NCBI GenBank assembly: GCA_963706795.1 | Contig: OY970170.1 | Coordinates: 780,001-812,000 of the forward strand | DNA from: Candidatus Saccharimonadota bacterium | Lineage (GTDB): Bacteria > Patescibacteriota > Gracilibacteria > BD1-5 > UBA2023 | Reading direction: 5' to 3' | Length of the DNA stretch: 32,000 nt | Shown here: positions 3,001-23,474 of the stretch, one piece after another | Numbering within the stretch: the first letter of the stretch is position 1 | Layout of the letters: each line of letters starts with the position of its first letter | Notes under the pieces: model-generated | Databases searched by the model: none | What the model saw: the letters and a program-made list of their open reading frames with translations, nothing else | What the model was told of the DNA's origin: nothing | Program-made: the position numbers and the translations under genes

Positions 3001-3003
3001 TAA
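1..3003 (+). CDS. Very large TPR/Sel1-like helical-repeat protein, at least 1000 aa. The 5' end may lie upstream of the window; an in-window ATG exists at 19.
   Basis: Track ORFs 19-483, 595-969, 1033-1602, 1603-1929, 1975-2229 and 2626-2919 are all in frame 1. They are separated only by TGA codons. The first TAA in that frame is at 3001-3003. TPR-like strings are present, for example GE-G-YAYFLL-G-ISYGNQKNYAEAIRIHE, where TGA sits at the TPR consensus Gly. No signal peptide or TM segment was seen. Confidence 0.6.
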
Positions 3004-3012
3004 GATCCTCCT

Positions 3013-5370: not shown

Positions 5371-5390
5371 CTCCAGAGAATGCTCTGGAG
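5371..5390 (+). promoter_or_regulatory. Perfect 8-bp hairpin in the pnp leader (CTCCAGAG-aatg-CTCTGGAG); its loop contains the upstream candidate ATG at 5380
   Basis: The inverted repeat was read directly. A TATAAT box lies at 5332-5337 upstream. E. coli pnp is autoregulated through an RNase III-cleaved leader hairpin, and rnc is present in this window. Confidence 0.4.
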
Positions 5391-5436
5391 AGACATCCGC
5401 GAAGCGGAGGAAAGGAATATTTTTTCATTTTCTCCT

Positions 5437-7607: not shown

Positions 7608-8171
7608 ATGCCAGCTGATATCATCCCACTCGGTGAACATCGCGATCTCAAGGCTGAAAAAAATCTCGAACAAAGGTTTCGTGATACAAACTTCCAGTAT
7701 CTTGCTGCAGTGGCTGAGATCATAAAAACTCGGGAAATTCTTATTCAGCGCGTGTATGATCTCCTCCCTGTAAAGCCCTCAGTAGTAGATGATTCAGCTC
7801 TTAAAGAAACTCCAAAAGGACTCGAAACAGCGCAGATATATTCACTCAATTCTCGAGTTACTCCGGTAAATCCGCTCACTCAGATACTTCGAATGATCAG
7901 CTTGTGGGACGAAAATATACATCAGTCCATGGATCCAAAACTCAGACTCCCATCCGAAGATCTGGGTCCCGATGAAAATCGCATGAAGCATCTGCTCGTA
8001 CTTGTCGATCAGTGTTCTGCATCGGAGATTGAGGAACTGGCAAAATACCTCAGCAGTGTAAATATTGCTCACGCCTCTCGCACAGTTATTGTGCAAAAAG
8101 CACATCTTCATATCTTGATATCTCAAAAAAGAGAACAATTCCAAAAACTCAATAATGACCAACAAAGATAA
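7608..8171 (+). CDS. Hypothetical protein, 187 aa
   Basis: Intact ORF that starts 6 nt after the pnp stop. It overlaps the next gene by 17 nt and ends in TAA. No recognisable motif. Confidence 0.55.
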   Translation: MPADIIPLGEHRDLKAEKNLEQRFRDTNFQYLAAVAEIIKTREILIQRVYDLLPVKPSVVDDSALKETPKGLETAQIYSLNSRVTPVNPLTQILRMISLWDENIHQSMDPKLRLPSEDLGPDENRMKHLLVLVDQCSASEIEELAKYLSSVNIAHASRTVIVQKAHLHILISQKREQFQKLNNDQQR

Positions 8172-9372
8172 TCTATCGTACTACGCATTTGAACTCGGAC
8201 GCGAGTGGAAGCTCTCACTCGCCGAACTCGAAGCACTTTTTGGAAAAGACGCGATAGAGAAGGTCTCTGAAAAACTCGTATTTTTGCGTACGGGCCGTGA
8301 TGTGCGAAATATGTTCTGGAATATGGGCGGAGTTATCCGCGCATTTCGGATTATTATGCCGCTTCGTGACCTAAAAATGTTCCCGCATCGAGTCACCGAA
8401 ATCCTCGAAAAAACTACAGACGAAGGGAAGATTTCATTTGCACTCGGAGCTATCGGACCAAAAATCCCAGTATTTTCGATGGGGCTTCGTATTAAGAAGG
8501 ATCTCAAGATAAAGGGGAAAAGCATCCGTTTTGCCAATAAAGACGATCGCAATCTCGTCTCTGCAGTCGTAAAAAAAGAGAGTCTCGCGTTCTATGAGCG
8601 AGAGTTTTTTATGCTCGAATGTGCAGGGGAGACGGTACTTGCTGCGACGACAGCAATTCAGGATATCGATGCCTATGCGGCGCGTGATCTCAAAAAAGAG
8701 CGCGATATGGAAGTCGGAATGCTTCCCCCAAAACTTGCTCAGACCATGGTCAATCTTGCACTCGGTCAGAGTGATGTGACGCCTAAAACCGGTCTCTATG
8801 ATCCGTTCTGTGGACTCGGAACTGTCCTTATCGAAGGTGCAAATATGGGTATTACGAAACTTCTTGCGTCAGATATCAGTGCTGAAATGGTGAGCGCTAC
8901 AAAGGTAGGAATCGAACGATTTGCAGAAGCACGAAAACTCCAAATCGATGCCTATGTCATGGGTCTCGATGCAAAAAATATCGCCAATTTCCCTCGACTC
9001 CGAGACGTTACCCACATCGTCAGTGAAGGATATCTTGGAAGCATCTTCTCTCAAGAAACCATCACCAAAGAAAAAGTCGCTGTCGAAAAACGCAATCTCG
9101 TCGTCATCTACGAAAGTATGTTCCGTGGCCTCTGGACTGCTAAATTTGATGGTACGATTGTCATGACGATCCCATGTTGGGGACTCAAAGGAGAATTTAT
9201 GTATTTCACCGAATTTTACGAACTCGTAAAAAAGATGGGATTCGAGATTGATCCGCTTCTCGGTAATTACAAAGAAATCCAACCCACAAAGTACGGAACC
9301 CTCCTCTACCGCCGTCCTGGTCAAACAGTCGGAAGAGAGGTGTGTAGAATTCGAAGGAAGAGCGTTCGATAA
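8155..9372 (+). CDS. Class I SAM-dependent RNA methyltransferase (UPF0020 / THUMP-associated family)
   Basis: 405-aa ORF. The motif LYDPFCGLGTVLIEGANMG matches the DPFCGSGT SAM-binding motif of UPF0020 putative RNA methylases. TAA stop. Confidence 0.75.
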   Translation: MTNKDNLSYYAFELGREWKLSLAELEALFGKDAIEKVSEKLVFLRTGRDVRNMFWNMGGVIRAFRIIMPLRDLKMFPHRVTEILEKTTDEGKISFALGAIGPKIPVFSMGLRIKKDLKIKGKSIRFANKDDRNLVSAVVKKESLAFYEREFFMLECAGETVLAATTAIQDIDAYAARDLKKERDMEVGMLPPKLAQTMVNLALGQSDVTPKTGLYDPFCGLGTVLIEGANMGITKLLASDISAEMVSATKVGIERFAEARKLQIDAYVMGLDAKNIANFPRLRDVTHIVSEGYLGSIFSQETITKEKVAVEKRNLVVIYESMFRGLWTAKFDGTIVMTIPCWGLKGEFMYFTEFYELVKKMGFEIDPLLGNYKEIQPTKYGTLLYRRPGQTVGREVCRIRRKSVR

Positions 9373-9525
9373 GAGGGAAAACAAATTCACAGAAATTTTT
9401 CTGCGAATTTTCTATTCTAGATATATCTTGGCGCAAGAAGCATGTTATTGCGATCAGAAAATTCCCTTCAAATTCCCTCAAACTTGCATTTTCCTGCCTT
9501 TTCATTACTCTCTGCGCGCAATCGC

Positions 9526-9612
9526 GCCCAGGTGGTGGAATTGGTAGACACGCAGGTTTCAGATACCTGTAGGAGCAATCCTATGTGGGTTCAAGTCCCA
9601 TCTTGGGCACCA
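9526..9612 (+). tRNA. tRNA-Leu (anticodon CAG), type II with long variable arm and encoded CCA
   Basis: Hand-folded. The acceptor stem GCCCAGG pairs with CTTGGGC. The D-arm is GTGG-AATTGGTAGA-CAC. The anticodon stem is CAGGT/ACCTG with loop TT-CAG-AT. The T-arm is GTGGG-TTCAAGT-CCCAT, followed by discriminator A and CCA. The architecture closely parallels E. coli tRNA-Leu(CAG). Confidence 0.9.
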
Positions 9613-9708
9613 TGCACAGAAATAACTGACGAACTTGAACGTGAGGCATCCCGCATCGCGGGATAGAAAGCCAACGATTTGGCTTTCGGCCGAGGGAGGC
9701 CCGAAGGG

Positions 9709-9729
9709 AAGTCCCATCTTGGGCACCAT
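9709..9729 (+). repeat. Exact 21-nt copy of the tRNA-Leu 3' end (AAGTCCCATCTTGGGCACCAT; first copy at 9593-9613)
   Basis: Direct comparison of the two stretches. The copy start positions are 116 nt apart. The 95 nt between them hold two perfect hairpins (ATCCCGC-atc-GCGGGAT and GAAAGCCAA-cgat-TTGGCTTTC). Confidence 0.85.
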
Positions 9730-9917
9730 TCTTCGCTTCTTCGAAGCTTCGAATGGCACGCCAGTACGATTGGGAAGAATGCTCTCCGTAGCTTTAGCGA
9801 AGGATGAGCAAAATGCCTAATCTCTCCTGAGATATACGAAAATAATAAGGGATTCTTTAGACTCGAACTCTTGGGAGTCTCATGTTATTTTCACTTTAAT
9901 ACTTTGACTTTTTGCCT

Positions 9918-10484
9918 ATGAAAACAGCTATGCAGTGCCGCGTAGGTACCGTTGTAAAAATTGGAAACGACCTTATGGTGGTTCTCCGATTCGAAATGCA
10001 CCGCGCAGGACGTGGAGCTACAAATATCAAGCTCCGTCTCAAGAACCTTCTCCAGAAGGGAATGCAGGATAAGATCTTCGATTCTGAAGAAAAGATGGAC
10101 GACGTAACACTCGCTCGTTCAAAATTCGAGTTCCTCTACGAATCAGCTGGAATGTACGCATTTATGGATCAGGAGAGTTTTGAACAGATCGAACTCAGCG
10201 AAGAAGATATCGGAGATGCGAAGTTCTATCTCACAGAAGGACTTATCGTTGATATCCAGAGCTTTGAAGGTCGTCTCGTTGGTGTTATGCTTCCACAAAA
10301 GGTAAAACTCAAAGTTACCGAAGCTGATCCTGCAGTCGCTGGTAACACAGCTGATGGAAAGGTCGACAAGCTCGTAAAGCTCGAAACTGGTCTTGAGCTC
10401 CGAGTTCCAGGATTTATCAATGCTGATGAATACATCATGGTTTCCCCAGAAACTGGAGAATACATGGAGCGCGCGAAGAACTAG
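9918..10484 (+). CDS. efp: Elongation factor P, Arg32 subtype
   Basis: 188 aa counted from ATG 9918; the track begins at a TTG two codons upstream. Collinear with EF-P over its length. The loop tip reads HRAG-R32-GAT instead of the Lys34 loop. TAG stop, followed by a terminator. Confidence 0.95.
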   Translation: MKTAMQCRVGTVVKIGNDLMVVLRFEMHRAGRGATNIKLRLKNLLQKGMQDKIFDSEEKMDDVTLARSKFEFLYESAGMYAFMDQESFEQIELSEEDIGDAKFYLTEGLIVDIQSFEGRLVGVMLPQKVKLKVTEADPAVAGNTADGKVDKLVKLETGLELRVPGFINADEYIMVSPETGEYMERAKN

Positions 10485-10494
10485 TTTCTTCTAT

Positions 10495-10525
10495 AAAAAA
10501 ACACCCGAGATTCGGGTGTTTTTTT
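10495..10525. terminator. Bidirectional rho-independent terminator between efp and the convergent ABC exporter
   Basis: AAAAAA-ACACCCGA-gat-TCGGGTGT-TTTTTT, with an A-run on one side and a T-run on the other. Confidence 0.8.
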
Positions 10526-12464
10526 ATGCCTCCACTTTGGACGTTACACCCTCATTTGAATGCTGGATATCATAGAATTTTGCATATGGATTATCTCAGC
10601 CGATAAGGGATTCATGATTACCAGTGCTCGTGATTTTTCCATCCTCGATGCAATAGATCGTATCGACATGGCGAATCGTCGACATGCGATGAGTGATGAA
10701 AATAATAATCTTTTCGCTTTTTTCTCCCAGGAGCTCTCGCATGATACGAAGCTCGTTTTCGGCATCGAGCTGGTTTGTTCCTTCGTCGAGGATGAGAATG
10801 GGGCGATCTTGGAGTAGTGTACGAATAATCGCAATAAGCTGTCTTTGTCCACCGGAGAGATCGTCATCCCAGCCAATATTATTATCGAGACCGAGTCGGA
10901 GTTTTTGGATCTTGGTTTTGAGTCCGAAGTTATCCAAGAGCTTCCAGAGCTCATCATCGCTGACTGCGCGTTCAACCCCGAGCGTGAGATTTTCACGGAT
11001 CGTGAATCTGCCATTCATAATAAACGGATCCTGGCTGACGTATGAGGCGAGTGAATAGAGTGCATCACGCCTAATTGTTTTACCTTCAATCTTGTTGTAG
11101 CTGATCGTTCCTTCGTAGTTTGAGAAGAATCCAAGGATGAGATTAATGAGCGTCGTTTTGCCTGCACCATTTTTGCCGACGATACCGTAGATATTTCCTT
11201 TTTTAAAACTCAGATTGATGTCATGGAGAATCACGGGGCTTGGGAGCTCGATTTCGGCCTTGAGTTCTTTGAGCATGTGGATCTCATCAAGATCCCAGGT
11301 ATTCATATTTTTGTAGGATTCGATTCGTCGTATTGAGATATCTATGAAGGATTTTTCAGCTTCTGCAGATTTTGGATACTGGAATACGCAATTGCGAATA
11401 CTGATGGATTCTACGGGATGTGAGATACAATTAATCCGCAGTTGATCGCCGTTCTCGGTCATTCCAAGGAAAAGCTCCATTCGAGCGAGATCATCTGCAA
11501 TCTTGTTTTTATCGATCCAAGTACTGAGAATATTATTTACGACCTCTCATATTTGAGAGGTATAGAGCATCGTCATTGTCATAAGACCGATGGATCCAGT
11601 CGAATAGTAAATCGTATATCAGACATACATTTTGATGAGCAATGTAAAGAAATTCTCATTGATGAGTTGCACAATGCTCCAGCTGGCATCACCGAGGACT
11701 TCAGTCTTGCGACTCACTGCGATTTGCTCAAGAATTCCAGCAAATTTTTGCGTAAATGATTTCGTTGCGCCATTGACGACTATGTGATGATATGACCGTT
11801 GTAATGCAGCTTCCATGTTCCATCTGAGAGAAGTGAGCTCATGATTGCTCTTGAGATTAAAGTGTATCATGAACGCATTTTTGTGCTGCTGTATCAAAAA
11901 TGCGAATATCGCAGATACAAATACAAGCAAAAATATTTTGTAATCCGTGAACGAAAATACAAGGAGTACTGAACTCGCCGTAATAAACATCCCAATTTTA
12001 GCGATGGTGAAATCCTCGATTTTGGCGGGCATGTCATTTACGGTACTTCTGGCGCTCTCGATGAGTCTTTGATATCTTGCAGAGAGCGAGTAGCCTGGAT
12101 CCAGAAACTGTGTGCGTTCGGTGACTTCAATGAGGAGACTGTTTTCGAGACGCTTTTTTTCGACTTCGGTTGCGAGTTTGAAGCCGAGATCTATCAGTGC
12201 TTTGAGAAGGTCTGCGATAAATATGATTCCTAAAATGATCAAAAATATTCCATATGGCGTATTCGTGAACATAAAAAATGTCGCGCTTTTTTCGACAAGC
12301 TGGTCCATCTCGAGCTTCACAAGATAGGGGAGTCCTGCCTGGATCAAACGCGCAACAATGGTTGTAATGAGCGCAATGAGGAAGTATCTGCGATGCTTCT
12401 TATAAACGATTTCCCAGATGAATTTTATTGCACGGGAATACTTCTCTCTCAAGCGCACGAACAT
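10524..12464 (-). CDS. ABC exporter, fused permease and ATPase (type I exporter, MsbA-like), 646 aa
   Basis: Track ORFs 11619-12464 (TMD) and 10596-11480 (NBD) share one frame. Three in-frame TGAs join them (11619-11621, 11547-11549, 10596-10598). Walker A is GKNGAGKT, the signature is LSGGQRQ, and Walker B is ILILDE. The C-terminus continues as G-DNPYAKFYDIQ... to TAA (complement of 10524-10526). Confidence 0.9.
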
Positions 12465-12466
12465 GA

Positions 12467-12931
12467 CTATTTGATTCCAATATATACCGCGACTCTGTCT
12501 ACTCCGATATAGTGTTCAAAATCCGCGATATAGGCACGCTCGTGCTCCGGATGAGCAGGGAAGAATTGCCAAACATCCATCCAGGCATCAATGACGGACT
12601 GTGGCATCGCTCCTGATTTTTCGAATACGAGATAGCTTCCACTTGGTATTTCTACGCTTCTCATATTGTCATCAAAGGAAATCTCCGTAGTTTTGTGGCC
12701 AACTGTGACATCAAATAATCCAGAAGCGTCGGATTCGTAATTTGAATACGTGCCATACATTGCACTTTCTGGATCTTTGTCCGTAATTTTATCACTGATC
12801 CCTTCACTAAAAAATTTGCCCCAGAGAGGTCCGATTTTAGCAGTGACAGGATTGCCTTCATCTTGGTTTTTGGTTCGAGTAGTGATACCAGTAACAATGA
12901 ATGCGTCTACATGTTTGAGGATTGGTTCCAT
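12467..12931 (-). CDS. GyrI-like / AraC-effector-binding-domain small-molecule-binding protein
   Basis: 154 aa from the internal ATG (MEPILKHVDAFIVTGITTRT...). Features typical of the family are IGPLWGKF, SGSYLVFE and DFEHY. The stop lies 2 nt upstream of the ABC exporter start. Confidence 0.7.
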   Translation of the reverse strand: MEPILKHVDAFIVTGITTRTKNQDEGNPVTAKIGPLWGKFFSEGISDKITDKDPESAMYGTYSNYESDASGLFDVTVGHKTTEISFDDNMRSVEIPSGSYLVFEKSGAMPQSVIDAWMDVWQFFPAHPEHERAYIADFEHYIGVDRVAVYIGIK

Positions 12932-12938
12932 ATTGATT

Positions 12939-13937
12939 TTAGGTGAATGAGATATCGTCAAGAGTCGCTGCGATGGTGTCAGTAATATCGTGCATTTCGA
13001 GTTTTTTTGCAAGTGCTCGGAAATTGATCTTATCTGCGAATAGGAGTTTTTCGAGACTTTTTTGAGGAGAATTTTCGATCACAAAATCCTTCAATGTCTC
13101 ACCCCAAGGAATCGTCTCATCGACGTAGTCTGTAAAGTCCTGGATTTTTTCAAAATGAGCATTATTGCTCTCGCGATATATATCCCACAAAAACGGCTTT
13201 CCAGCGAGCAAGGCTCAGATGAGACTATTTTCTCATCGTACGATATTTGTATCACTGAGGTTTAGGAGTGCGCTGTAGTCTGCCAGGGGAAGAAAGGGGA
13301 GGCTGGTGCAATTGTTTGCCTCAATCGATAGCCCACCACACATCAGGAATTGATATTCTGGATGATTCTGTGCAAGCAGAGAGATGGCTTCGAGGCTTGA
13401 TGGATAGACAAAAACACTACACCATTTTTGGGTGTGTTTTAAAGAACCAAGTGCATATTTTTCTTTGAATTTTTCTCGAGTCATTTCTTCATTTTGCCTC
13501 GGGATGACCACTCCAGCTCATTCCTCAAGGATGCTTGGGACGAGATGAATGACCGTAGATTGACCGACGGTGTAGGTTGTTTTGTGGAGCGATGCAACTC
13601 CAGGATTCTGATATCCACGATCCTTATGAAATTGCAGATAATCAAAATTGAGAATCGTATGTGGAAAGGCATTTTGAAGCGTTTCTTCGTTGATTTTAAG
13701 CCCAAAAAAATTGCATCTGATCTCGCTGTGTTGGCTTGCCTCCCAATCATCAAGTTTGTGATATTGGAGAGAAGGAAAACTCTCTGAACCCAGCATGCGA
13801 TCGAAAAGATCGCGGTCTTCGCTCCAAAAATGAATAGTGAGATCGGGGTATTTTTGCATCAAACAAATAGCGAGTGAGAGTGCAAATCCCATGTCGCCAA
13901 AATTGTCTATCACCGGAACGGTAAAATCCATCTGCAT
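12939..13937 (-). CDS. earP: EF-P arginine-32 rhamnosyltransferase EarP (DUF2331 family), 332 aa
   Basis: Three same-frame fragments (13518-13937, 13233-13511, 12939-13211) join through three TGAs. The product matches remembered Pseudomonas EarP blocks. VIDNFGDMGFALSLA matches VVDNYGDIGVTWRLA. LPFLPLADYSALLNLSDTNIVR-G-ENSLI-G-ALLAGKPFLWDIYRE matches LPFMAQDDYDRLLWCCDLNAVRGEDSFVRAQWAGRPLLWHIYRQ. TAA stop. Confidence 0.88.
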
Positions 13938-13991
13938 GAGGCAAGTCTACTTCCCATTTGCAAAACGCAAGATTCTCTGTTCAATACGCCC

Positions 13992-14930
13992 ATGCTTCCA
14001 AAACTTCTCAACTCCCGTCTACGGTCTATTCTCGTGGATACCGATTATCAGTCTGTCATGGACGCCTTTGCAACTCAGCGAATGGCTTCCTTTCGCGTAA
14101 ATACGCTCAAATCTTCCGAAGAAGAAATCGATGCAAAACTTGCAACGCTGGGCATCGCAGCGACAAAATTCCCACCTATTAAAGGTGTCTATTTACTCGA
14201 TCCAGCAGATGAATTCGCATTTAAGGGTTCACCACTTTTTCGCGAAGGACTGACCTATATGCAGTCGCTCTCGAGTCTTTTACCGCCTCTCGCTTTTGAA
14301 TATGGCGAATGAATGACCAAAGTGCTCGATATCTGTGCGGCTCCTGGCTCAAAAACGACTCAAATGTCTGCGCTCATGTCTAATCACTGAGAGATCGTTG
14401 CGCTCGAACAGAGTCCGATTAGATGTGATAAGCTCATCCACAATGCCAAACTCCAAGGAGCAACCAACATCCGAATTCTTCGTACAGATGCTCGTAAATT
14501 CCTCGATGAGAGCGACGAAATGTTTGATGCGATTTTGCTCGATGCACCATGTTCGGCAGAGTGACGCATTCGTCTCGATGATGAGCGCTCATACGGATTT
14601 TTTTCACTCGATAATATCCGTCGTAAATCTGAGCTGCAGCTCGATCTCCTTCTGCATGCATTTATGCATCTCAAGCCCCAAGGAGTCCTTGTTTACTCAA
14701 CTTGTACTCTCGCTCCCGAAGAAAACGAAGGCGTTATCTCACGATTTCTCTCGAATGGAAAACATGCCATCCTCGAATCTGTCGAGTTTCCATTTGTCGA
14801 ATTTCGCCCAGGATTGACGCGTTTTGCGAGTAGAGAATACCATGCTGACATAGCGCGGACGGCACGTATTCTTCCTTCCAAAAATTTTGAATGATTTTTT
14901 GTAGCAAAGATCAGAAAAACCGGCCTATAA
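13992..14930 (+). CDS. RNA cytosine-C5 methyltransferase (NOL1/NOP2/Sun; RsmB/RsmF-like), 312 aa
   Basis: Frame-3 fragments 13992-14312 and 14664-14894 join through four TGAs to TAA 14928-14930. Motifs are DICAAPGSKT, LDAPCSAE-G-RIR (TGA at 14562-14564 on the DAPCSGxG glycine) and VYSTCT. Confidence 0.85.
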
Positions 14931-15287: not shown

Positions 15288-15758
15288 ATGCGAAAACTCT
15301 CCCGTCGCGAAGTGCGCGAATTCCTCCTTCAGTCGCTCTACGCACGTTCAGTGCTGGGTACTGATTTCTCTCTTGAGAATTTTGCGTCGTCCTACTACGA
15401 GTCTCCAGTTGGGGATGCTCTTGTTGACGCATACTTTTTGGACATGTACGATGGTATCATTGTTCAAGAAGGTAATCTCCTACAAGTAGTGAGTCTTTTT
15501 GCGCCAAAATTCGATATTTCGATCATGCCACTCGTCAATCTTTTGCCGATCTTCATCGGTGCGTATGAGATGCTCTATCTCAAGGCTGATCAAGTACCAG
15601 AAAAGGTTTCGATCAACGAGGCAGTCGAACTTGCTAAAAAATTCTCCGACGATGGAGCTCGTGAGCTCGTCAATGGCGTCTTGAATAGCTTGAAAGATCA
15701 GAAGAACACGATAGTATCTACGCTCGAAAGCAGACAGGGATTTTTCTTCCTCGTCTAA
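15288..15758 (+). CDS. nusB: Transcription antitermination factor NusB
   Basis: 156 aa. The N-terminal SRREVREFLLQSLY and the C-terminal INEAVELAKKFSDDGARELVNGVLN match NusB hallmarks. Confidence 0.85.
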   Translation: MRKLSRREVREFLLQSLYARSVLGTDFSLENFASSYYESPVGDALVDAYFLDMYDGIIVQEGNLLQVVSLFAPKFDISIMPLVNLLPIFIGAYEMLYLKADQVPEKVSINEAVELAKKFSDDGARELVNGVLNSLKDQKNTIVSTLESRQGFFFLV

Positions 15759-15785
15759 TTTCTTCTTTAGAACTTATACCTTCAC

Positions 15786-16517
15786 ATGACAAAACGAAGC
15801 AATCGCTTCGATCCATTGGCATTTGAAGAGAAAGTAGAAAGTCTTCTGCTTTCTCTTGAGATTCCGTACAAGAGGAGGAGCTCATATGTGCTCGCATTCC
15901 TCCACAGATCTGTACTCAATGAGATCAATCTCCCTGAGAGCAACGAACGTCTCGAATATCTCTGAGACGCTGTCCTAGAGCTCATTACTACCGAATACCT
16001 CTTCCATGCATTTCCTGATAAGGATGAGGGGGCTATGACGGATATTCGTAGTGCGCTCGTTCGAGGCCGTAATCTCGCGGATGTCGCTCTCAGGCTCGGC
16101 CTCTCCGACTTTATATTGCTCTCAAAGGGCGAAATCCAAGCAGGCGGAAATCTCAATCCATATATCCTCGCAAATACCTTTGAGGCTCTTCTTGGTGCAG
16201 TATACCTCGATGCAGGATTTACGGCTGCGAAGCAGTTCGTAGAGATCCATGTCATCTCTACTCTCAAACAAATCCTCGACGAAGAACTCCATGTAGATCC
16301 AAAATCCAATCTCCAAGAGCTCATCCAGGCAATGTATAACGTGACTCCGCATTACGATCTCATTGGCGATCATGGTCTCGATCACGACAAAACCTACGAA
16401 ATCGGCGCCTATGTCCTCGATCGTGAGATCGGACGAGGTGTAGGTTCGAGCAAAAAAAAGGCGCAATCCAAAGCTGCCGAAAACGCCCTCGAGCGCAAAA
16501 AAGAGTGGGAAAAATAG
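15786..16517 (+). CDS. rnc: Ribonuclease III, 243 aa
   Basis: ATG at 15786 in frame 3. The RNase III signature reads NERLEYL-(TGA 15963-15965)-DAVLEL, against canonical ERLEFLGDAVL. The dsRBD ends in GSSKKKAQSKAAENAL. TAG stop. Confidence 0.95.
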
Positions 16518-16600
16518 TGGATCAGGATGCAGTACATTGGTTTTGTAAAATCCCAATGCATCAATATCTGTAGGAGAGTGTTTTCTCCCTCGATTAAGTT

Positions 16601-16628
16601 TTGACTTTCGTCCCTCATTTCATACAAT
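16601..16628 (+). promoter_or_regulatory. Sigma-70-like promoter: TTGACT, 16-nt spacer, TACAAT, upstream of rpmH
   Basis: Hexamers read directly at 16601-16606 and 16623-16628. Confidence 0.5.
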
Positions 16629-16652
16629 TCACGCATTCATTTTTAGAGTACT

Positions 16653-16898
16653 ATGATTGGTAAATTCAAGAAGCGCAAACGTCTTCGTTCACACGGTTTC
16701 CTTGCTCGCATGACCACAAAGGGTGGAGCGAAGGTTATTGCTGCACGCCGCCGAAAGGGTCGTCACGTTCTCGCAGTTAGCTATCCAAACCGCTACAAAT
16801 TCACAAACGGTAAGTCAAAGCTCCACATTATTGCTGGAGGTACTGCACGCGTAGTTCGATATCCAGGTTCTAGCGAGAAATTCCGCCCAGAAGCATAA
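16653..16898 (+). CDS. rpmH: Ribosomal protein L34 with a C-terminal extension of about 35 aa (81 aa total)
   Basis: The L34 core is [37 protein letters not shown]. The ORF then continues without any stop to TAA 16896-16898. The conserved rpmH-rnpA-yidC order supports the call. Confidence 0.85.
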
Positions 16899-16901
16899 AA
16901 C

Positions 16902-17309
16902 ATGATCGCGAAACTATTTCGCCTCACAGAATCAGACGTTGGAAAGGTTTTAAAAAGAAAAAAACCTTTCTTTTCGTATACCCTCGTGGCGAATGTTACT
17001 AAAAATCAGCTTGCACATGCGCGTTTCGGCATTATCCTTTCGGGGAAAGTAACAAAAACAAGCGTCGATCGTAATTTTTACCGTCGGATGTTTTTCGAGC
17101 TTGCCCGTCCATATATCGAAAAGAGCACATTTGATATTGTGCTCGTCGTCAAAAAAGGGAATGTGCTGACCCGCAAAAACCCAGAACACATCGCAAATTT
17201 CGAAAAAGAAGTTACCTTCCTTTTAAAAAAGATATTTTCTCCCTTATCGCATGAAAGACCGTCTCCTCAATATACTGCTCCTCACGTTCATCTTCCTCCT
17301 CGTCATTAA
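16902..17309 (+). CDS. rnpA: Ribonuclease P protein component
   Basis: 135 aa. FGIILSGKVTKTSVDRNFYRRMFFE matches the RnpA basic motif (VSKK..AV.RNR.KR). It sits between rpmH and yidC. The 3' end overlaps the yidC start by 59 nt. Confidence 0.8.
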   Translation: MIAKLFRLTESDVGKVLKRKKPFFSYTLVANVTKNQLAHARFGIILSGKVTKTSVDRNFYRRMFFELARPYIEKSTFDIVLVVKKGNVLTRKNPEHIANFEKEVTFLLKKIFSPLSHERPSPQYTAPHVHLPPRH

Positions 17310-18414
17310 TTTTTTCTTGCCGAAGCCAGCTGCACAAACCGAAAAATCCGAGCCAAACTTCAAACTTGCGCAGGCTGAATACGTCATCCCAAATATTCCG
17401 GTTATCAGTCTCGCCAACCCTACAGACAAGGTGATTTCGCTCGATACATGTAAAGATCTCGAAATCCTTCGTGATCTCCAAAAAGTCCAGATCGATGGAA
17501 CAGCACAGGCATTCTGTAAAACGCTTACTGTAGCACCAAAATCAGAGGTGCATCTCGATCTCAGCGCACTTCGAGCGCTCTTTGAGCATCCATCGGATAT
17601 TGGATTTAAGGCAAAAGTCGACAACAAAGATATCGCAGTGAGTGTAAAAATCTCCGAACGCGGAATGCTTCGTACCTTCTTTGCGACGATTTTTTATGCA
17701 CCAGTACTCAATCTCTTTGTATATATTCTTGATGTGCTTCCTGGACATAATCTCGGACTCGCAATTATTTTGATTACACTGCTCGTTCGTATCATTCTTC
17801 TCTTGCCACAGCATCACATGCTCGTGAACGCTCGCAAGATGCAAGAGCTCCAGCCACATATCAAAAACCTTCAAGAGAAGCATAAGGGTGATCAATCCAA
17901 GATCGGAATGGAGCTCATGGAGCTCTACAAACGTGAAAAGGTAAATCCACTTGGAGCATGTCTTCCTCTGCTTATCCAGATGCCTCTGCTCATTGTCCTG
18001 TATTGGGTTTTAACGAGTATTCTTGATGCGAGTAATCATTATTATTTTTACTCATTTTTTCAGGGGTTTCAGGTAAGCAGTATTAATACGCATTTCCTCG
18101 GAATGGATCTCCTTGCGATTGGCGGTATCGTAGGTGCAATCCTCGCACTTTTGGTTGGTATTGCTCAGTGGGCGCAGATTAAGCTCTCTCAGATGCGTAC
18201 AAATGCTTCTCCAGCTCCTGTGATTAAGCACGATCCCGAGAGTCTTATGCCAGATCCAAACATGATGAATATGTTCATGCTTTGGGGAATGCCGGTGATG
18301 ATCGCTGTATCTACATACTTTTTCCCAGCGGGTGTTGGTGTTTACTGGCTCATTGGAACGCTCTTTATGCTCGTTCAACAAGTCATCGCAAACCGCGTAA
18401 CTACAAAAAAGTAA
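17251..18414 (+). CDS. yidC: Membrane protein insertase YidC/Oxa1 family
   Basis: 387 aa with an N-terminal TM segment. The conserved core is ILLITLLVRIILLPQHHMLVNARKMQELQPHIKNLQEKHKGDQ...YKREKVNPLGACLPLLIQMP. Confidence 0.9.
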   Translation: MKDRLLNILLLTFIFLLVINFFLPKPAAQTEKSEPNFKLAQAEYVIPNIPVISLANPTDKVISLDTCKDLEILRDLQKVQIDGTAQAFCKTLTVAPKSEVHLDLSALRALFEHPSDIGFKAKVDNKDIAVSVKISERGMLRTFFATIFYAPVLNLFVYILDVLPGHNLGLAIILITLLVRIILLLPQHHMLVNARKMQELQPHIKNLQEKHKGDQSKIGMELMELYKREKVNPLGACLPLLIQMPLLIVLYWVLTSILDASNHYYFYSFFQGFQVSSINTHFLGMDLLAIGGIVGAILALLVGIAQWAQIKLSQMRTNASPAPVIKHDPESLMPDPNMMNMFMLWGMPVMIAVSTYFFPAGVGVYWLIGTLFMLVQQVIANRVTTKK

Positions 18415-18478
18415 TTTCGCTGACAAAAAAACGACACTTCGCAGATATACTCAGTCAGTTTATTCTTCAATATCTCGT

Positions 18479-18742
18479 ATGAAAACACGTGCCATCCTTG
18501 CGGGTCTCGTAGTACTTGCACTCACTATCCCATCAGCATTCGTCAATGCACGCGCTGTGGTTTCAGGTCCAGCAAAGATTACTTCAAAACCTGTAGTGAA
18601 GACTGTAGCTCCGGTTACCAAACCCGCTACCTCTGTAAAAACAGTGACAAAAAAGCCAACTATAAAAACACCTACCGTTACTAAAAAGCCAGTTGTAAAA
18701 AAGAAGGTAAGAACGCCTGTAAAAACAACCGTAAAACCTTAG
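18479..18742 (+). CDS. Small secreted Lys/Pro/Thr/Val-rich low-complexity protein, 87 aa
   Basis: The signal peptide is MKTRAILAGLVVLALTIPSAFVNA. Iterated KPxVKT-like segments follow. TAG stop and a terminator come after it. Confidence 0.55.
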   Translation: MKTRAILAGLVVLALTIPSAFVNARAVVSGPAKITSKPVVKTVAPVTKPATSVKTVTKKPTIKTPTVTKKPVVKKKVRTPVKTTVKP

Positions 18743-18746
18743 TTAT

Positions 18747-18769
18747 AGCCTGCAATGCAGGCTTTTTTT
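18747..18769 (+). terminator. Rho-independent terminator
   Basis: AGCCTGC-aat-GCAGGCT followed by TTTTTTT. Confidence 0.75.
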
Positions 18770-18776
18770 GAATACT

Positions 18777-19454
18777 ATGAGAGTGTTGCTCGTAGAGGAC
18801 GATCCACGAATTGCTGCAAATATCATTGAATTCCTCGGGACTCAATCTTTTGCGGTTGATCATACAGACAATGGCAAGACTGGATATGAAATGGCCGTGA
18901 AGGGCGATCTCTATGATGCAGTCATCTCTGATCGCATGCTTCCGCTCATGGATGGCGCGACCATGGTACGCAATCTTCGTAGTGAAGGCGTAAAAACTCC
19001 CATTATTATGCTTACTGCCATGGATGCAACGGATCAAAAGATCGATGGTCTCTATGCTGGCGCGGATGATTATCTCGTGAAGCCATTTTCGCTCAAAGAG
19101 CTCCTTGCCAGACTTCATGCACTGCTCAGGAGGACATTCGACCATCTCGAGGATGGAAAGGAACTCATCATTGCTGATTTGCACTTGATGTTAGATACCA
19201 AGCAGGTATATCGAGCAAATACCGCTATCAAGCTCTCCAAAAAACAATTTGAGCTTCTTGAATATCTCATGCGAAATCCCTGACGAATTATCTCTAAGTC
19301 AGAGCTCGAAGAACATATCTGGGATCGAAATGCTGAGCTTTGGAGCGATGTAGTTCGATCACATATTCAAACCCTTCGAGCCAAGATTGATCGGCCATTT
19401 GTAAAGCAGCTTATACAAACTACTCACGGCATGGGATATGGCATTTTTGAATAA
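18777..19454 (+). CDS. OmpR-family response regulator, 225 aa
   Basis: MRVLLVEDD receiver domain with LTAMDA and KPF. One in-frame TGA (19281-19283) joins the receiver to a winged-helix C-terminus (...HIQTLRAKIDRPF...TTHGMGYGIFE). TAA at 19452-19454. Confidence 0.9.
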
Positions 19455-20775
19455 ATTTACACCCGCGAATCTTCCGATCAAGACACGTTTGGCATTTGCT
19501 TTTGCATGCGTCTCGATCGTGTTTTTGTGTGTATATTCTTTTGTTGTCTATACGGTTTTTGATCGCTATCTTTTGCGAGATGCGACGGATTTGGTGCGGG
19601 CGCAGTATGAGTCGATTCTCTCGGATATCACCTTTGTTGAGGACGAATCTCAGGGAATAGATCTGGCCGAAAAAACCCTCTCACGCATCGATCAGGCCAC
19701 CAATCTTGGGCTTCTTGTTTTTGTATATGACAGCAATGGCGATGCGATTGTTTCACCTTCACCGATCAGTATTCCTATCGGAAAAGAATGAGCATTTGAG
19801 CTCCAAGAATGATCCGAAATCTTCTTTGTATATGGAGGGAAGGTAGAGCAGGGCTCACTTTATGTCGCGCTGAGCAAGGAAGTGAGTGTACAAGAAAAAC
19901 TTGGTCGACTCCTTGGGATTTTAGTCCTTGTCTGACTCGCGTCAGCTTGATTGATCTTTGTTGTGAGTTACTTTTTTTCTCGTAGGGCGCTTCGACCGAT
20001 TGACCGACTCAAGGAATACATTGCTTCTGGTGGAAGTGCTGAACTCCGTTTTGCGAAGGATGAGATCGGATATTTAGCAGAAGAATTCGATCAATATCGT
20101 ACTCGTATCGAGGCCTCGCTTGCGCGAGAACGTGAATTTAGTGCTGATGCGAGTCATGAGCTTCGCACTCCATTAACGGTACTCAGAACCACGCTCGAAC
20201 TGCTCGAATCCAAAAAACAAGATACCGAATCAACATCCAAAATCGCCACTATGAATGAGGCGATTGATGAGATGGAAGACCTCATAAATAAGCTTTTACT
20301 TTTGGAGCGTGGCTTAGCTGATGGCGCCGAATCCTCCATGCAGGTGAGTGATTTCTTCTCTGATTTTCTCACACCCTTTAAGGATATAGCTCACAAAAAA
20401 GATCTCAATATCATCCTCGAAACTCCCAAAAAAGACTTTCTTGTGCGAACGAGCAGAGAGCGTCTGGAACATGTTTTTGGGAATCTCATACGCAATGCTC
20501 TCCACTATACCGAACAGGGGGCTATCACGGTTCGAGTCACTAAAAATCGCGTGGATATTATCGATACCGGAGTTGGAATGTCTCACCAAAACCTCATGCG
20601 AATCTGGGATCGATTTTATCGCAGTGATCGTTCTCGCAATGGTGAAGGAGCCTGACTCGGACTCTCAATTGTAAAACGTCTTGCAGAAGAATCTGGCTGG
20701 ATTTTAGCAGTGAAGTCTGAGCTCGGAGTCGGCTCGACTTTCACAGTTATATTTCCGAATGCTTCCAAGAAATAA
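19438..20775 (+). CDS. Sensor histidine kinase, 445 aa, with two TM segments
   Basis: Frame-1 fragments 19438-19791 and 19951-20655 join through TGAs. The H-box is FSADASHELRTPL and the N-box is NLIRNALHY. The G2 box reads GEGA-(TGA 20653-20655)-LGLSIVKRL. TAA at 20773-20775. It overlaps the response regulator stop by 17 nt. Confidence 0.9.
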
Positions 20776-21697
20776 TGCGATTTTTTTTGGTGAAAAGGAG
20801 CTTTCAGAGCTCTTTTTTTGTTCCGCCGTTTGCTTCGGCTATAAATCTACGGATTTCAGCGATATTGCCTTCTGAGAGTCCAATAGTTGTGTTGTGCACG
20901 ATACGATATATCGTCTCGATAAGGGTATTTTGCTCTAGAAGCGTGAGTGCCAAAAATTCCCATTCATGAAAACTCTCATTATCAAGAAGTCGCGTAATAC
21001 GGGATTCGAGGGTTTCGTGAACCATTTCAGCATATTCCGAAAATGCAGAGAGATTATCACGGAATTGTGGATTAATTGCCTCAATTTCTGGGATAATTTT
21101 ATTGCGGATACGGTTGCGTAAAAATGCCTCAGCGTCATTTGAGCTATCCTCTCGAAAAGCGATTGAATGCTCTGTAGCATAGCTTCGAATCGCTGACTTT
21201 GTGGTATGAATCAGTGGTCGAAGCGTATTGCCACTCAGTTCTGCAATCCCCGTGAGTCCTCAGAGTTTTGAACCACGAAAAAAATTTAATAGAATGGTTT
21301 CTATACTGTCATCTAAATGGTGTCCGAGGATAACAAATCGTGATCCAGTCTGTTTTCGGATGATTTCAAAGGCTTCTTTACGGACAATTCTTCCGGATTC
21401 TTCGAGGCCAATTTTTGCTTCTTTTGCACGGGTGGCAATATCCTCTTTGAGACTTATGCAGAGAATTCAATGTCACTCGCAATAGGTTTTCACAAGTGCT
21501 TCATCGCCGTCACTTTCAGCTCCACGAAGTCAGTGATTAATATGGACCACAGTGATCTGTTTTTTGGCATGTATCTCTGTCAAAATCTGGAGCAGTACCA
21601 TGCTGTCGACTCATCCAGAAACTCCCACAACAATAGGCTCATCAGTGTCAATCTGATGCGTTGTAAATACGTTTTCGATGGTCTGGAGGAGAGTCAT
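20747..21697 (-). CDS. tilS: tRNA(Ile)-lysidine synthase, 316 aa
   Basis: Minus-strand frame read by hand. The PP-loop is VVGVSG-(TGA, complement of 21611-21613)-VDS. LGHHLDDSIETILLNFFRGS follows. At least five in-frame TGAs. The stop is TAA (complement of 20747-20749). The 3' end overlaps the convergent kinase gene by 29 nt. Confidence 0.85.
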
Positions 21698-22151: not shown

Positions 22152-23474
22152 ATGAATAAGCCCATCGAGAACGAACAGCAATTCAAAAAAGTCATCACAG
22201 CACTCGGAGACAAAAGTGGTTCCTCGAGTCATTTTCAGTCTGACAAATTTGATCAGCTCGCCAAGTATGTCCATGAAGCCCTCGAAAAACAGGACTCTGA
22301 TCTGGCACTCACACTCATCACAAAATGAGCACTTTCGCTCGGATCTTCTGATGTCCATTACGATCTCTCCGATGGTCTCACACAGGTACGACTTCGTATT
22401 GATGGTAATCTCGTGACAATTTTTGCGCTCGAACTTCGTCAGTACAAACTGCTTCTTGAACGTCTCAAATACAAATCCGAACTCAAACTCAATATCACCA
22501 ATATTCCACAGGATGGAAAATACCGTATTTTGGATGATGTGAGCCGAATAGACGTTCGTGTTTCGACGCTTCCAGTCAAGAATGGAGAGAATGTGGTATG
22601 TCGTATTTTGGATTCGACAAATGCAATTCCAAAGGTTTCAGATCTTGGATTTATCTGGACTTCAAAGCGTCAGATCGACAAAAGTCTCAAGAAAAAGGCA
22701 GGAATGATCCTTGTAACGGGACCGACTGGATCGGGTAAAACTACTACGCTCTATTCGATCATGCAGGAGCTCAATGTTCCTGAGCACAAGATCATTACCC
22801 TCGAAGATCCCATCGAATACGATCTCCCATGAGTGGTTCAATCCGAGGTAAATGAAAAGAATGGCTATAACTACCATACTGGCCTCAAGGCGCTTCTGCG
22901 TCAGGATCCGGATGTTATTATGATTGGTGAAGTGCGTGATCTCGATACTGCAAATACTGCCGCGCAGGCTTCGCTGACGGGACATCTTGTGCTCTCGACA
23001 CTGCATACCAAGAGTGCTTCTGAGACGCTTGAGCGACTCATGAATATGGGGGTAGCATCATATATTCTTGCCTCGTCTATCGATATCATTATTGCTCAGC
23101 GCCTCGTTCGCAAGCTCTGTCCACACTGTATCGAGTCCTATATCGCCGACGAATCTCAGAGCGAAGTTATCAAATGGATGATGCAAGATATTGGTATCGA
23201 TGCCGTTGCCAAGGCCAATAAAAATGGCTACAAGCTCTATCGTTCGAAGGGATGTGAACACTGTGGTTTTACAGGATATCGCGGTCGACTCGGTATTTAC
23301 GAAGTCCTTCATTTTAATGACGACATTCGCAAACTCATCCGAGATGGCGCAAGTCCCGCACAAATCTTGGTTGAAGCTCGCAAAAACGACCTCATTCTCA
23401 TGCGTGAAGACGGTGTCCTCAAAGCCATGCGTGGTAAAACTTCACTCGAAGAAGTCTTTAGTGTAATTGAATAA
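22152..23474 (+). CDS. pilB: Type IV pilus / type II secretion assembly ATPase (PilB/GspE family), short form of 440 aa
   Basis: Frame 3 from ATG 22152 joins 22413-22832 and 22833-23474 through TGAs at 22326-22328 and 22830-22832. Motifs are SDVHYD...VRLRIDG, Walker A GPTGSGKTTT, the Asp box, Walker B VIMIGEVRD, the His box TGHLVLSTLH, and the tetracysteine CPHC...CEHC. Confidence 0.9.

What the first reader, a model, noticed from the sequence alone, without database searches (positions are those of the whole stretch)
9918..13937. EarP rhamnosyltransferase and an Arg32-type EF-P in a code-25 (CPR-type) genome
The efp product has Arg exactly at position 32 of the loop tip (HRAG-R-GAT), where E. 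coli-type EF-P carries Lys34. About 2.5 kb away on the opposite strand is a 332-aa gene that is only visible after reading three TGAs as Gly. It matches the conserved EarP blocks (DNxGDxG; LPF...DY..LL...D.N.VRGE(D/N)S; GKPFLWxIY). From what I recall, EarP/EF-P(R32) rhamnosylation is described mainly in beta- and gamma-proteobacteria and a few other phyla, and it needs dTDP-L-rhamnose. A metabolically reduced episymbiont keeping this modification system would be notable. It also raises the question of where the activated sugar comes from.
Basis: partly seen in the sequence, partly recalled or inferred. Interest (0 to 1): 0.7.

Follow-up and report, generated by a model that had tools for sequence, protein, structure and literature searches.

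The report
EarP–EF-P(Arg32) pair in a Gracilibacterium
A tiny TGA-recoded CPR bacterium encodes a divergent but apparently intact copy of EarP, the enzyme that puts a rhamnose sugar on translation factor EF-P, next to a matching Arg-type EF-P; the pair is conserved across related genomes, which adds a lineage the EF-P literature I could search does not mention.

Summary
It matches Pfam EarP (93.6 bits, cut-off 25), and its only sequence matches in the PDB are EarPs. TGA means Gly here: it falls on invariant glycines, and orthologues have Gly at 61% of these positions and never Trp.

The catalytic residues D13/D17/E273 of P. putida EarP and most dTDP-binding residues are kept. A model of a 52%-identical homologue matches EarP crystal structures (TM 0.72-0.79).

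A scan of species genomes found 20 related loci, all in Gracilibacteria/Peribacteria/Patescibacteria MAGs, and every one has in-frame TGA. In 14, efp lies within 5 kb of earP, inside a conserved rsmF-nusB-rnc-yidC block. Their EF-Ps carry the loop xR(G/A)GRG(A/S)T.

This EarP clade is about 21% identical to canonical EarPs and as diverse internally, so recent transfer is unlikely. NCBI already labels some homologues EarP, but no searchable paper links EarP to CPR. rmlABCD could not be checked for this genome; published surveys report it in the class. Verdict: real, a divergent new member of a known system, of moderate interest.

The parts
9918..10484 (+). efp: elongation factor P, 188 aa, no in-frame TGA. 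This is the presumed acceptor protein.
   Evidence: Pfam EFP_N, EFP and Elong-fact-P_C; NCBIfam PRK00529 at 186 bits. An identical protein, P0054, lies on a 1,267,896-bp public contig.
10011..10013 (+). Codon 32 (CGT, Arg) at the tip of the beta3-beta4 loop H28-R-A-G-R32-G-A-T35. This is the presumed glycosylation site.
   Evidence: Gapless alignment to P. aeruginosa EF-P Arg32 (3oyy, 6j7m_M) and to Lys32 of 6rji. Codons read. The loop is conserved as xR(G/A)GRG(A/S)T in 109 of 120 homologues.
12939..13937 (-). earP: divergent EF-P arginine rhamnosyltransferase (GT104, GT-B fold), 332 aa under code 25.
   Evidence: PF10093 93.6 bits. Only EarP hits in the PDB by sequence. A homologue model matches EarP structures at TM 0.72-0.79. 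D11, D15, E236, R234, F176, Y178, F215 and Y254 are conserved.
13518..13520 (-). In-frame TGA, earP codon 140, read as Gly.
   Evidence: Orthologues have Gly in 7 of 8 aligned cells and TGA in the eighth. Codon read.
13233..13235 (-). In-frame TGA, earP codon 235: the Gly of the VRGE motif, between the phosphate-binding Arg234 and the catalytic Glu236.
   Evidence: Gly in 8 of 8 orthologues. Gly is nearly invariant across 46 EarPs.
13215..13217 (-). In-frame TGA, earP codon 241, at a variable position.
   Evidence: Orthologues have K (7) or S (1); P0001 has G.
12467..12931 (-). GyrI-like/Cass2 small-molecule-binding protein, 7 nt downstream of earP on the same strand.
   Evidence: Pfam Cass2 and GyrI-like. 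Also present between earP and efp in the nearest relative, L007.
10524..12464 (-). ABC transporter (fused membrane and ATPase domains), 2 nt downstream of the GyrI-like gene. It is absent from between earP and efp in all related loci examined.
   Evidence: Pfam ABC_tran. Absent between earP and efp in the related loci L002-L026.
13992..14930 (+). rsmB/F-type rRNA methyltransferase, divergent from earP across a 54-nt spacer. It is a conserved neighbour of earP.
   Evidence: Pfam Methyltr_RsmB-F. The rsmF-earP divergent pair occurs in 14 related MAG loci (L007-L011, L013-L015, L017, L018, L020, L022) plus L002 and L006.
15288..21697 (.). Conserved synteny block nusB-rnc-rpmH-rnpA-yidC-(RR-HK)-tilS that accompanies the rsmF/earP/efp cluster in relatives.
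   Evidence: Pfam. tblastn synteny across L002, L006, L007, L011, L013, L014, L018, L020 and L022.

Best explanation
The region holds a working enzyme-substrate pair for activating EF-P by arginine glycosylation, in a TGA=Gly (code 25) Gracilibacteria-class CPR genome.

Proposed mechanism: earP encodes a GT-B inverting glycosyltransferase of family GT104. Its C-domain pocket binds dTDP-beta-L-rhamnose. F176, F215 and Y221 stack on the base, and R234, Y178 and S238 contact the diphosphate, with Y254 also conserved. The acidic residues D11, D15 and E236 activate the guanidinium group of Arg32 at the tip of the EF-P KOW-domain hairpin, giving alpha-rhamnosyl-arginine. Modified EF-P then relieves ribosome stalling at consecutive prolines.

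The pair is not a recent import. It belongs to a deep, lineage-specific EarP subfamily that has stayed next to an Arg-type EF-P, with loop xR(G/A)GRG(A/S)T, inside a conserved housekeeping gene block.

Shown here: homology, fold (by proxy), conservation of catalytic and most donor-binding residues, the acceptor Arg at the loop tip, conserved gene linkage, and the genetic code.

Inferred: that the donor is dTDP-L-rhamnose, that the modification actually happens, and that it is needed for EF-P function.
For: - **Family match.** PF10093 at 93.6 bits against a cut-off of 25. The PDB hits by sequence and by profile are exclusively EarP.
- **Fold.** An AlphaFold model of P0001 (52% identical to the window protein) has pLDDT 90.3. 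Its top 13 Foldseek PDB matches are all EarP (E 1e-16 to 1e-21, TM 0.72-0.79). The next non-EarP GT-B enzymes are at about 1e-8.
- **Key residues.** P. putida D13, D17, E273, R271, F191, Y193, F252, S275 and Y291 correspond to window D11, D15, E236, R234, F176, Y178, F215, S238 and Y254. These are invariant or nearly so in the CPR clade. Their roles are taken from PMC5615199.
- **Acceptor loop.** R32 is at the loop tip, Gly is at -1 and there is no Pro at -2. The individual P. putida substitutions K29R, S30A/G and N33G are tolerated (PMC6544042).
- **Linkage.** efp lies within 0.05-5 kb of earP in 14 of 20 related species-level loci, all within the same synteny block.
- **Age of the clade.** The CPR clade separates cleanly from canonical EarPs. 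Mean identity is 36% within the clade and 21% between clades.
- **Genetic code.**
- **Donor availability in the class.** PMC4736985 and PMC9166423.
Against: - The protein scores far below the NCBIfam equivalog cut-off (95.7 against 347 bits). It is about 21% identical to canonical EarPs and about 45 residues shorter.
- Three residues implicated in P. putida EarP are not kept. Q255, which hydrogen-bonds the nucleotide sugar 3'-OH, is L218 here. D274 is N237, invariant in this subclade and V or G in another. Its salt-bridge partner R23 is S21.
- No rml genes are in the window or within 10 kb of earP in any related locus; there are only weak RfbA-like hits in L025 and L026. I could not search the rest of this genome.
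- More distant Gracilibacteria with the same Arg-type EF-P show no earP within 10 kb. Linkage is therefore not universal.
- There is no biochemical evidence.
Confidence: 0.77

Rival explanations
1. The enzyme-acceptor pair is the same, but the donor differs. The CPR-type EarP would glycosylate EF-P Arg32 with a nucleotide sugar other than dTDP-beta-L-rhamnose.
For: Q255 of P. putida EarP, which contacts the deoxyribose 3'-OH, is Leu/Ile/Phe in the CPR clade. D274 is Asn, or Val/Gly in a second subclade, and its partner R23 is not conserved. No rml genes are linked to earP. In the P. putida structure the rhamnose ring itself makes no protein contacts (PMC5615199), so sequence says little about sugar specificity.
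Against: The aromatic cage and the phosphate-binding residues are conserved. The D274 contact to the diphosphate is through the backbone, so D to N need not change binding. The dTDP-rhamnose pathway is reported as common in the class.
Confidence: 0.1
2. The EarP-like glycosyltransferase acts on something other than EF-P. The Arg-type EF-P would be unmodified or modified by an unknown route, and the linkage would be incidental.
For: Many Arg-type EF-Ps in other phyla have no known modifier (PMC12931083). Some Gracilibacteria with this EF-P type show no earP nearby. In L005 earP sits away from efp.
Against: Adjacency persists in 14 loci while EarP identity falls to about 32%. R32, G31 and the absence of Pro at -2 are invariant. 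Every characterised member of PF10093 acts on EF-P. EF-P domain I resembles the EarP-type more than the Firmicutes type (three comparators only).
Confidence: 0.06
3. The pair is a recent horizontal import from Proteobacteria, like the islands in Petrotogaceae or Planctopirus, rather than a long-resident lineage trait.
For: The literature treats every non-betaproteobacterial EarP as a transfer (PMC11388002). An ABC transporter and a GyrI-like gene lie between efp and earP here, so the local region has seen insertions.
Against: The CPR EarPs form their own clade, as diverse internally as the canonical set, and only 16-27% identical to it. Synteny with rsmF, nusB, rnc and yidC is conserved across the clade. 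The genes carry lineage-typical TGA-Gly codons, including at the VRGE glycine. No rfb genes travel with earP, unlike the Petrotogaceae island. The EF-P scores higher against Firmicutes-type than against Pseudomonas EF-P overall.
Confidence: 0.05
4. earP is a pseudogene broken by three stop codons in a standard-code genome, or the code is 4 (TGA=Trp).
For: Under table 11 the frame breaks into pieces of 139, 92 and 90 aa. A public assembly annotates it that way (L001). Several database homologues were translated with Trp at these positions.
Against: There are 50 in-frame TGAs in 14 otherwise intact genes. They sit on invariant glycines and never align to Trp. Genes end in TAA or TAG only. All three TGAs of earP are in frame, with no frameshift.
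Confidence: 0.01

Closest known systems
EarP (GT104; PF10093 / TIGR03837) with Arg32-type EF-P of Pseudomonas, Shewanella and Neisseria
   Same: Same Pfam family and same GT-B fold. Same catalytic Asp/Asp/Glu triad, phosphate-binding Arg and aromatic nucleotide cage. Arg at the tip of the EF-P beta3-beta4 loop, with Gly at -1 and no Pro at -2. earP lies close to efp.
   Different: About 21% identity and about 45 residues shorter. The score is below the NCBIfam equivalog cut-off. Q255 becomes L, D274 becomes N, and the R23 partner is lost. The EF-P loop is HR(A/G)GRGAT rather than KSGRNAA. The host is a TGA-recoded CPR bacterium. No rfb genes are linked.
Horizontally transferred earP-efp islands in Petrotogaceae, Planctopirus, Treponemataceae and Fusobacteriaceae (PMC11388002)
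   Same: EarP and an Arg-type EF-P occur together outside the Beta- and Gammaproteobacteria.
   Different: Those cases are nested with proteobacterial sequences, break the native efp synteny, and in Petrotogaceae carry rfbBCD alongside. Here the pair forms its own deep clade, sits in a conserved housekeeping block that includes nusB, and has no rfb genes nearby.
Arg-type EF-Ps with no known modifier, and EfpL/YeiP (PMC12931083, PMC11611912)
   Same: Arg at the loop tip.
   Different: Those proteins do not co-occur with EarP. EfpL has an extended loop. The window protein matches generic EF-P models (186 bits) far better than EfpL models (about 105 bits).

Membership tests
EarP (GT104, PF10093/TIGR03837) | Significant match to the family model above its curated threshold | tested here: met
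   PF10093 at 93.6 bits against a gathering cut-off of 25, E 1.7e-26, covering residues 8-277.
EarP (GT104, PF10093/TIGR03837) | Score above the NCBIfam equivalog cut-off (TIGR03837, 347 bits) | tested here: not met
   95.7 bits. This makes it a divergent subfamily, so exact functional equivalence is not certified by that model. NCBI nevertheless names the homologues P0016 and P0022 as EarP.
EarP (GT104, PF10093/TIGR03837) | GT-B two-Rossmann fold closest to solved EarP structures | tested here: met
   Tested by proxy. A model of P0001 (52% identical) has pLDDT 90.3, and its top 13 PDB matches are all EarP (TM 0.72-0.79).
EarP (GT104, PF10093/TIGR03837) | Invariant catalytic residues D13, D17 and E273 (P. 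putida numbering) | tested here: met
   They correspond to D11, D15 and E236, which are invariant in 19 CPR-clade sequences. The mapping comes from the profile alignment to 5nv8, and the roles from PMC5615199.
EarP (GT104, PF10093/TIGR03837) | dTDP-rhamnose pocket: F191, Y193, F252, Q255, F258, R271, D274, S275, Y291 | tested here: inconclusive
   Seven of nine are kept or conservatively replaced: F176, Y178, F215, Y221, R234, S238 and Y254. Q255 is L218 and D274 is N237.
EarP (GT104, PF10093/TIGR03837) | Cognate EF-P with Arg at the loop tip, Gly at -1 and no Pro at -2 | tested here: met
   The loop is HRAG-R32-GAT. The substitutions relative to P. putida are individually tolerated (PMC6544042).
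EarP (GT104, PF10093/TIGR03837) | Genomic association of earP with efp | tested here: met
   2.45 kb apart here. Within 0.05-5 kb in 14 of 20 related loci.
EarP (GT104, PF10093/TIGR03837) | dTDP-L-rhamnose synthesis (rmlABCD) in the same genome | not testable with these tools
   Absent from the window and from the flanks of related loci. The 1.27-Mb source contig could not be retrieved. Reported for the class in PMC4736985 and PMC9166423.
EarP (GT104, PF10093/TIGR03837) | Demonstrated alpha-rhamnosylation of EF-P Arg32 | not testable with these tools
   Needs mass spectrometry or an anti-rhamnosyl-arginine antibody.
Genetic code 25 (TGA = Gly; Gracilibacteria/Absconditabacteria) | In-frame TGA at conserved Gly positions, not Trp, with TAA and TAG as the only stops | tested here: met
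   66 of 108 aligned cells are Gly and none is Trp. TGA falls on motif glycines. Gene stops are TAA 10 and TAG 3.
Genetic code 25 (TGA = Gly; Gracilibacteria/Absconditabacteria) | tRNA-Gly with anticodon UCA; loss of release factor 2 | not testable with these tools
   The only tRNA in the window is tRNA-Leu(CAG). The rest of the genome is not available.

The most novel reading that the evidence does not exclude
Arginine glycosylation of EF-P by EarP would be an old, mainly vertically inherited trait of the whole TGA-recoded Gracilibacteria-class branch of the CPR. It would have its own EarP subfamily and its own EF-P loop signature. That would make this branch a second major natural home of the system, a deep sister to all proteobacterial EarPs, and would weaken the published view that EarP arose within the Betaproteobacteria. 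Surveys would have missed it because TGA recoding fragments or mistranslates the gene in standard annotation.
Probability: 0.4. Interest if true: 0.55.

Novelty: new member of a known kind. Interest (0 to 1): 0.4.

Why it matters
- **Range of the modification.** EF-P needs a lineage-specific modification in most bacteria studied. Which bacteria use which modification is still being mapped, and close to half of surveyed genomes have EF-Ps of no known type (PMC11388002). This finding assigns a probable modification to the EF-P of a whole class of uncultured, genome-reduced CPR bacteria.
- **What reduced genomes keep.** A 1.27-Mb genome retains a dedicated single-substrate glycosyltransferase. 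That argues that EF-P activation is under selection even in a proteome with few polyproline runs (9 PP and no PPP in 9,432 residues of this window).
- **Material for enzyme studies.** It supplies a distant EarP/EF-P pair (about 21% and 32% identity to the model systems) for studying how the enzyme recognises its acceptor hairpin.
- **Annotation blind spot.** Under codes 11 or 4 the gene is split or mistranslated, so comparative surveys undercount it.

Tried and rejected
- **Structure of the window EarP.** I modelled the closest database homologue instead.
- **Retrieving the source genome.** The source is a 1.27-Mb contig. Genome-wide presence of rmlABCD and absence of epmA/epmB/ymfI/dhs therefore remain untested.
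- **rml genes near earP.** tblastn with E. coli RfbA, B, C and D against the window and 27 loci (434 kb) found nothing. The only exceptions were 27-28% RfbA-like hits in L025 and L026.
- **Does the clade span standard-code lineages?** From ORF coverage I first thought the clade included high-GC 'Peribacteria' MAGs using the standard code. This was wrong: all loci carry in-frame TGA in conserved genes.
- **Promoters and terminators.** The scan of 9400-14200 found fewer promoter-like sites than shuffled sequence and no informative terminators.
- **Non-coding RNAs.** An Rfam scan of the window found only the tRNA.
- **EF-P phylogeny.** I did not build a broad tree, for lack of a balanced sequence sample. 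Only three PDB comparators were used, so that result is anecdotal.


Full report
**1. What is in the sequence**

The plus-strand ORF 9918-10484 encodes a 188-aa protein. [quoted passage not shown] Codons 28-35 read H-R-A-G-R-G-A-T, and Arg32 is CGT at 10011-10013. In HMMER alignments to solved structures this stretch aligns without gaps. Arg32 falls on Arg32 of P. aeruginosa EF-P (3oyy, 6j7m_M), the residue that EarP rhamnosylates, and on Lys32 of the 6rji/6rk3 EF-P. The Arg is therefore at the loop tip.

On the minus strand, 12939-13937 is one frame of 332 sense codons from ATG to TAA. It is interrupted only by three TGAs, at codons 140, 235 and 241. With TGA read as Gly, the protein matches Pfam PF10093 (EarP) at 93.6 bits, against a cut-off of 25 and with E 1.7e-26. 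Its only sequence matches among 177,635 distinct PDB sequences are the EarPs of Neisseria, P. putida and P. aeruginosa.

**2. The genetic code**

Reading TGA as sense joins fragments into long genes across the window. Examples are two proteins of about 1,000 and 765 aa, an ABC transporter, rsmF, a histidine kinase, tilS and an RCC1-repeat protein.
- I counted 50 in-frame TGAs in 14 confident genes. These genes end in TAA (10) or TAG (3).
- The TGAs fall on textbook glycines: the TilS PP-loop SG[G]VDS, the kinase G2 box GA[G]LGL, RCC1 GQL[G], and EarP VR[G]E.
- At the TGA positions of seven window genes, orthologues in related loci have Gly in 66 of 108 aligned cells and Trp in none. The Gly background is 7%.

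This is code 25, not code 4, and earP is not a pseudogene.

**3. Is the enzyme likely to be active?**

A profile of the CPR-type sequences aligns to P. putida EarP (5nv8) over nearly the full length. Using residue roles from Krafczyk et al. 2017 (PMC5615199):
- The three invariant catalytic residues D13, D17 and E273 correspond to D11, D15 and E236.
- The leaving-group Arg R271 corresponds to R234.
- The nucleotide cage and diphosphate contacts F191, Y193, F252, F258, S275 and Y291 correspond to F176, Y178, F215, Y221, S238 and Y254.
- All of these are invariant or nearly so among 19 CPR-clade sequences, and most remain so across 46 EarPs.

There are three differences. Q255 is L218. D274 is N237, which is invariant in this subclade and Val or Gly in another. 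Its salt-bridge partner R23 is S21.

The window protein could not be submitted for structure prediction. The closest database homologue, P0001 (52% identical), gave a confident model with pLDDT 90.3 and pTM 0.89. Its 13 best Foldseek matches in the PDB are all EarP (E 1e-16 to 1e-21, TM 0.72-0.79), and a further EarP entry (5nv8) follows at 6e-9. Other GT-B enzymes start near 1e-8.

On the acceptor side, Volkwein et al. 2019 (PMC6544042) report the following for P. putida EF-P:
- Gly31 and the absence of Pro at -2 are essential.
- K29R is tolerated.
- S30G and S30A retain 96% and 39% of activity.
- N33G is rhamnosylated at 62% of the wild-type rate.

The window loop HRAGRGAT meets every one of these requirements.

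**4. Relatives and context**

A word-indexed search of 5.8 billion proteins found 26 close relatives at 33-53% identity. A second tier of canonical EarPs followed at 23-30%. Two relatives are already named EarP by NCBI, in a Candidatus Gracilibacteria MAG and a Patescibacteria-group MAG.

A scan of one genome per GTDB species with the clade alignment returned 20 loci. Every one is titled Candidatus Gracilibacteria, Candidatus Peribacteria, Patescibacteria group, or an unnamed MAG. The nearest is 61% identical.

tblastn with the window's proteins shows a conserved arrangement: tilS-(HK-RR)-yidC-rnpA-rpmH-rnc-nusB-...-rsmF, then earP divergent from rsmF, then efp convergent with earP. efp lies within 0.05-5 kb of earP in 14 of the 20 loci, and several others end at a contig edge. 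In this window an ABC transporter and a GyrI-like gene lie between earP and efp. They are packed 7 and 2 nt apart on the earP strand. The nearest relative, L007, has only the GyrI-like gene there.

All the linked EF-Ps carry (H/R)R(G/A)GRG(A/S)T, as do 109 of 120 EF-P homologues retrieved separately. Every locus has in-frame TGA in conserved genes. An earlier impression that some were standard-code was wrong.

A profile search of 1.84 billion representative proteins found 1,599 EarP-like proteins at E <= 0.001, of which 49 score at E <= 1e-30. The best-scoring ones I inspected are of this CPR type. Many of the top hits are fragments of 100-230 aa, or carry Trp at glycine positions. Both are what annotation under codes 11 and 4 would produce.

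**5. Evolution**

In a neighbour-joining tree the CPR sequences form one clade and the canonical sequences another. Mean identity is 36% within the CPR clade (minimum 18%), 37% within the canonical set, and 21% between them. This depth, the conserved housekeeping synteny, the TGA-Gly codons inside earP and the absence of co-travelling rfb genes all argue against a recent proteobacterial import of the kind described for Petrotogaceae or Planctopirus (PMC11388002).

The tree is unrooted and the canonical sample is biased, so the direction of any ancient transfer is open.

The EF-P scores better overall against the 6rji/6rk3 and 1yby EF-Ps than against P. aeruginosa EF-P. Its domain I, the part EarP recognises, is closer to the Pseudomonas type (33% against 26% identity), while domains II-III show the reverse. 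With only three comparators this is a lead, not a result.

More distant Gracilibacteria with the same Arg-type EF-P have no earP within 10 kb. In L005 earP sits beside the ribosomal-protein operon. Linkage is therefore common but not universal, and whether all members of the class have EarP is unknown.

**6. The sugar donor**

No rml gene is in the window or in the flanks of related loci. I could not obtain the rest of the genome. Published genome analyses report rfbABCD in complete Peribacteria genomes (PMC4736985). They also report dTDP-L-rhamnose synthesis as conserved in Gracilibacteria MAGs (PMC9166423). Because Q255 and D274 are replaced, a different donor cannot be excluded. I give that about 10%.

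**7. Novelty and verdict**

The EF-P literature I could search lists EarP in Beta- and some Gammaproteobacteria, Petrotogaceae, Planctopirus, Treponemataceae and Fusobacteriaceae. No paper in the library contains EarP together with Patescibacteria or 'candidate phyla', or 'elongation factor P' together with Gracilibacteria. Database annotation, however, already names some of these proteins EarP.

It is a divergent new member of a known system in an unreported lineage, not a new kind of system. Interest is moderate, at 0.4. It would be higher if EarP proves ancestral to the whole recoded CPR branch, or if the donor differs.

Noticed in passing
window-wide; e.g. 5380-7602 (pnp), 17251-18414 (yidC) versus 19-5307, 20747-21697: TGA-Gly use is very uneven. 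It is 0% of Gly codons in pnp, efp, yidC, nusB, rnpA and the 8155-9372 methyltransferase. It is 17-28% in the two giant TPR-like proteins, tilS, rsmF, earP, the histidine kinase and the pilin-like protein. This suggests the reassigned codon is avoided in some core genes.
   Followed up: partly
window 10524-12931 (-): An ABC transporter and a GyrI-like/Cass2 ligand-binding protein lie directly downstream of earP on the same strand, with gaps of 7 and 2 nt. They look like one operon with earP. The nearest relative, L007, has only the GyrI-like gene, and other relatives have neither.
   Followed up: partly
window 9918-10109 (EF-P domain I) versus 10110-10484: EF-P domain I is more similar to P. 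aeruginosa EarP-type EF-P (33% identity) than to the 6rji and 1yby EF-Ps, which I took to be S. aureus and C. thermocellum (about 26%). Domains II-III show the opposite (32% against 39-41%). This may be co-evolution with EarP or a mosaic history. Only three comparators were used.
   Followed up: partly
L002-L026; proteins P0003, P0007, P0019, P0180-P0188, P0201-P0215; L001: Public records of this EarP clade are often damaged by the wrong genetic code. Logan calls split the window's own earP into pieces of 139, 83 and 90 aa. Many database entries carry Trp at invariant Gly positions, as code 4 would give. MAGs labelled 'Peribacteria' with 53-59% GC also carry in-frame TGA.
   Followed up: yes
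proteins P0201, P0204, P0206, P0210, P0215; probably L025 and L026: A second recoded EarP subclade has RGE(V/G)S in place of RGE(N/D)S, KPFLWDMYK, and a conserved C-terminal ...FYFSL. P0210 is annotated as 638 aa, with the EarP domain at residues 312-585. That may be a read-through or fusion artefact.
   Followed up: no
L029-L031 (EF-P homologues P0075, P0086); L005: More distant Gracilibacteria with the same Arg-type loop keep efp in a different neighbourhood (fmt, HIT, sortase ... era, ispH), with no earP within 10 kb. In L005 earP sits between rplO and queA, beside the ribosomal-protein operon, without efp.
   Followed up: partly
window 19-3003 and 3013-5307 (+): Two adjacent very large proteins (994 and 764 aa, 11 and 10 TGA codons) have only sub-threshold TPR-like Pfam hits and no other recognisable domains.
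   Followed up: no
window 22152-23474, 27535-28323, 29249-31999, 25736-26872: A set of cell-surface genes: a PilB/T2SSE ATPase, a pilin-like protein with an N-methylation motif, a protein of more than 917 aa with RCC1-type repeats (...CWG.N..GQLG...) running off the window end, and a GH26-like glycoside hydrolase.
   Followed up: no
window proteome (26 genes, 9,432 aa): There are only 9 Pro-Pro dipeptides and no PPP in the window's proteins. The load of EF-P client motifs looks low, at least locally.
   Followed up: no
window 17251-17309; 19438-19454; 20747-20775: Gene overlaps: rnpA and yidC by 59 nt as called, the response regulator and histidine kinase by 17 nt, and the histidine kinase and tilS (convergent) by 29 nt. 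Start sites were not verified. tRNA-Leu(CAG) at 9526-9612 lies about 300 nt upstream of efp.
   Followed up: no
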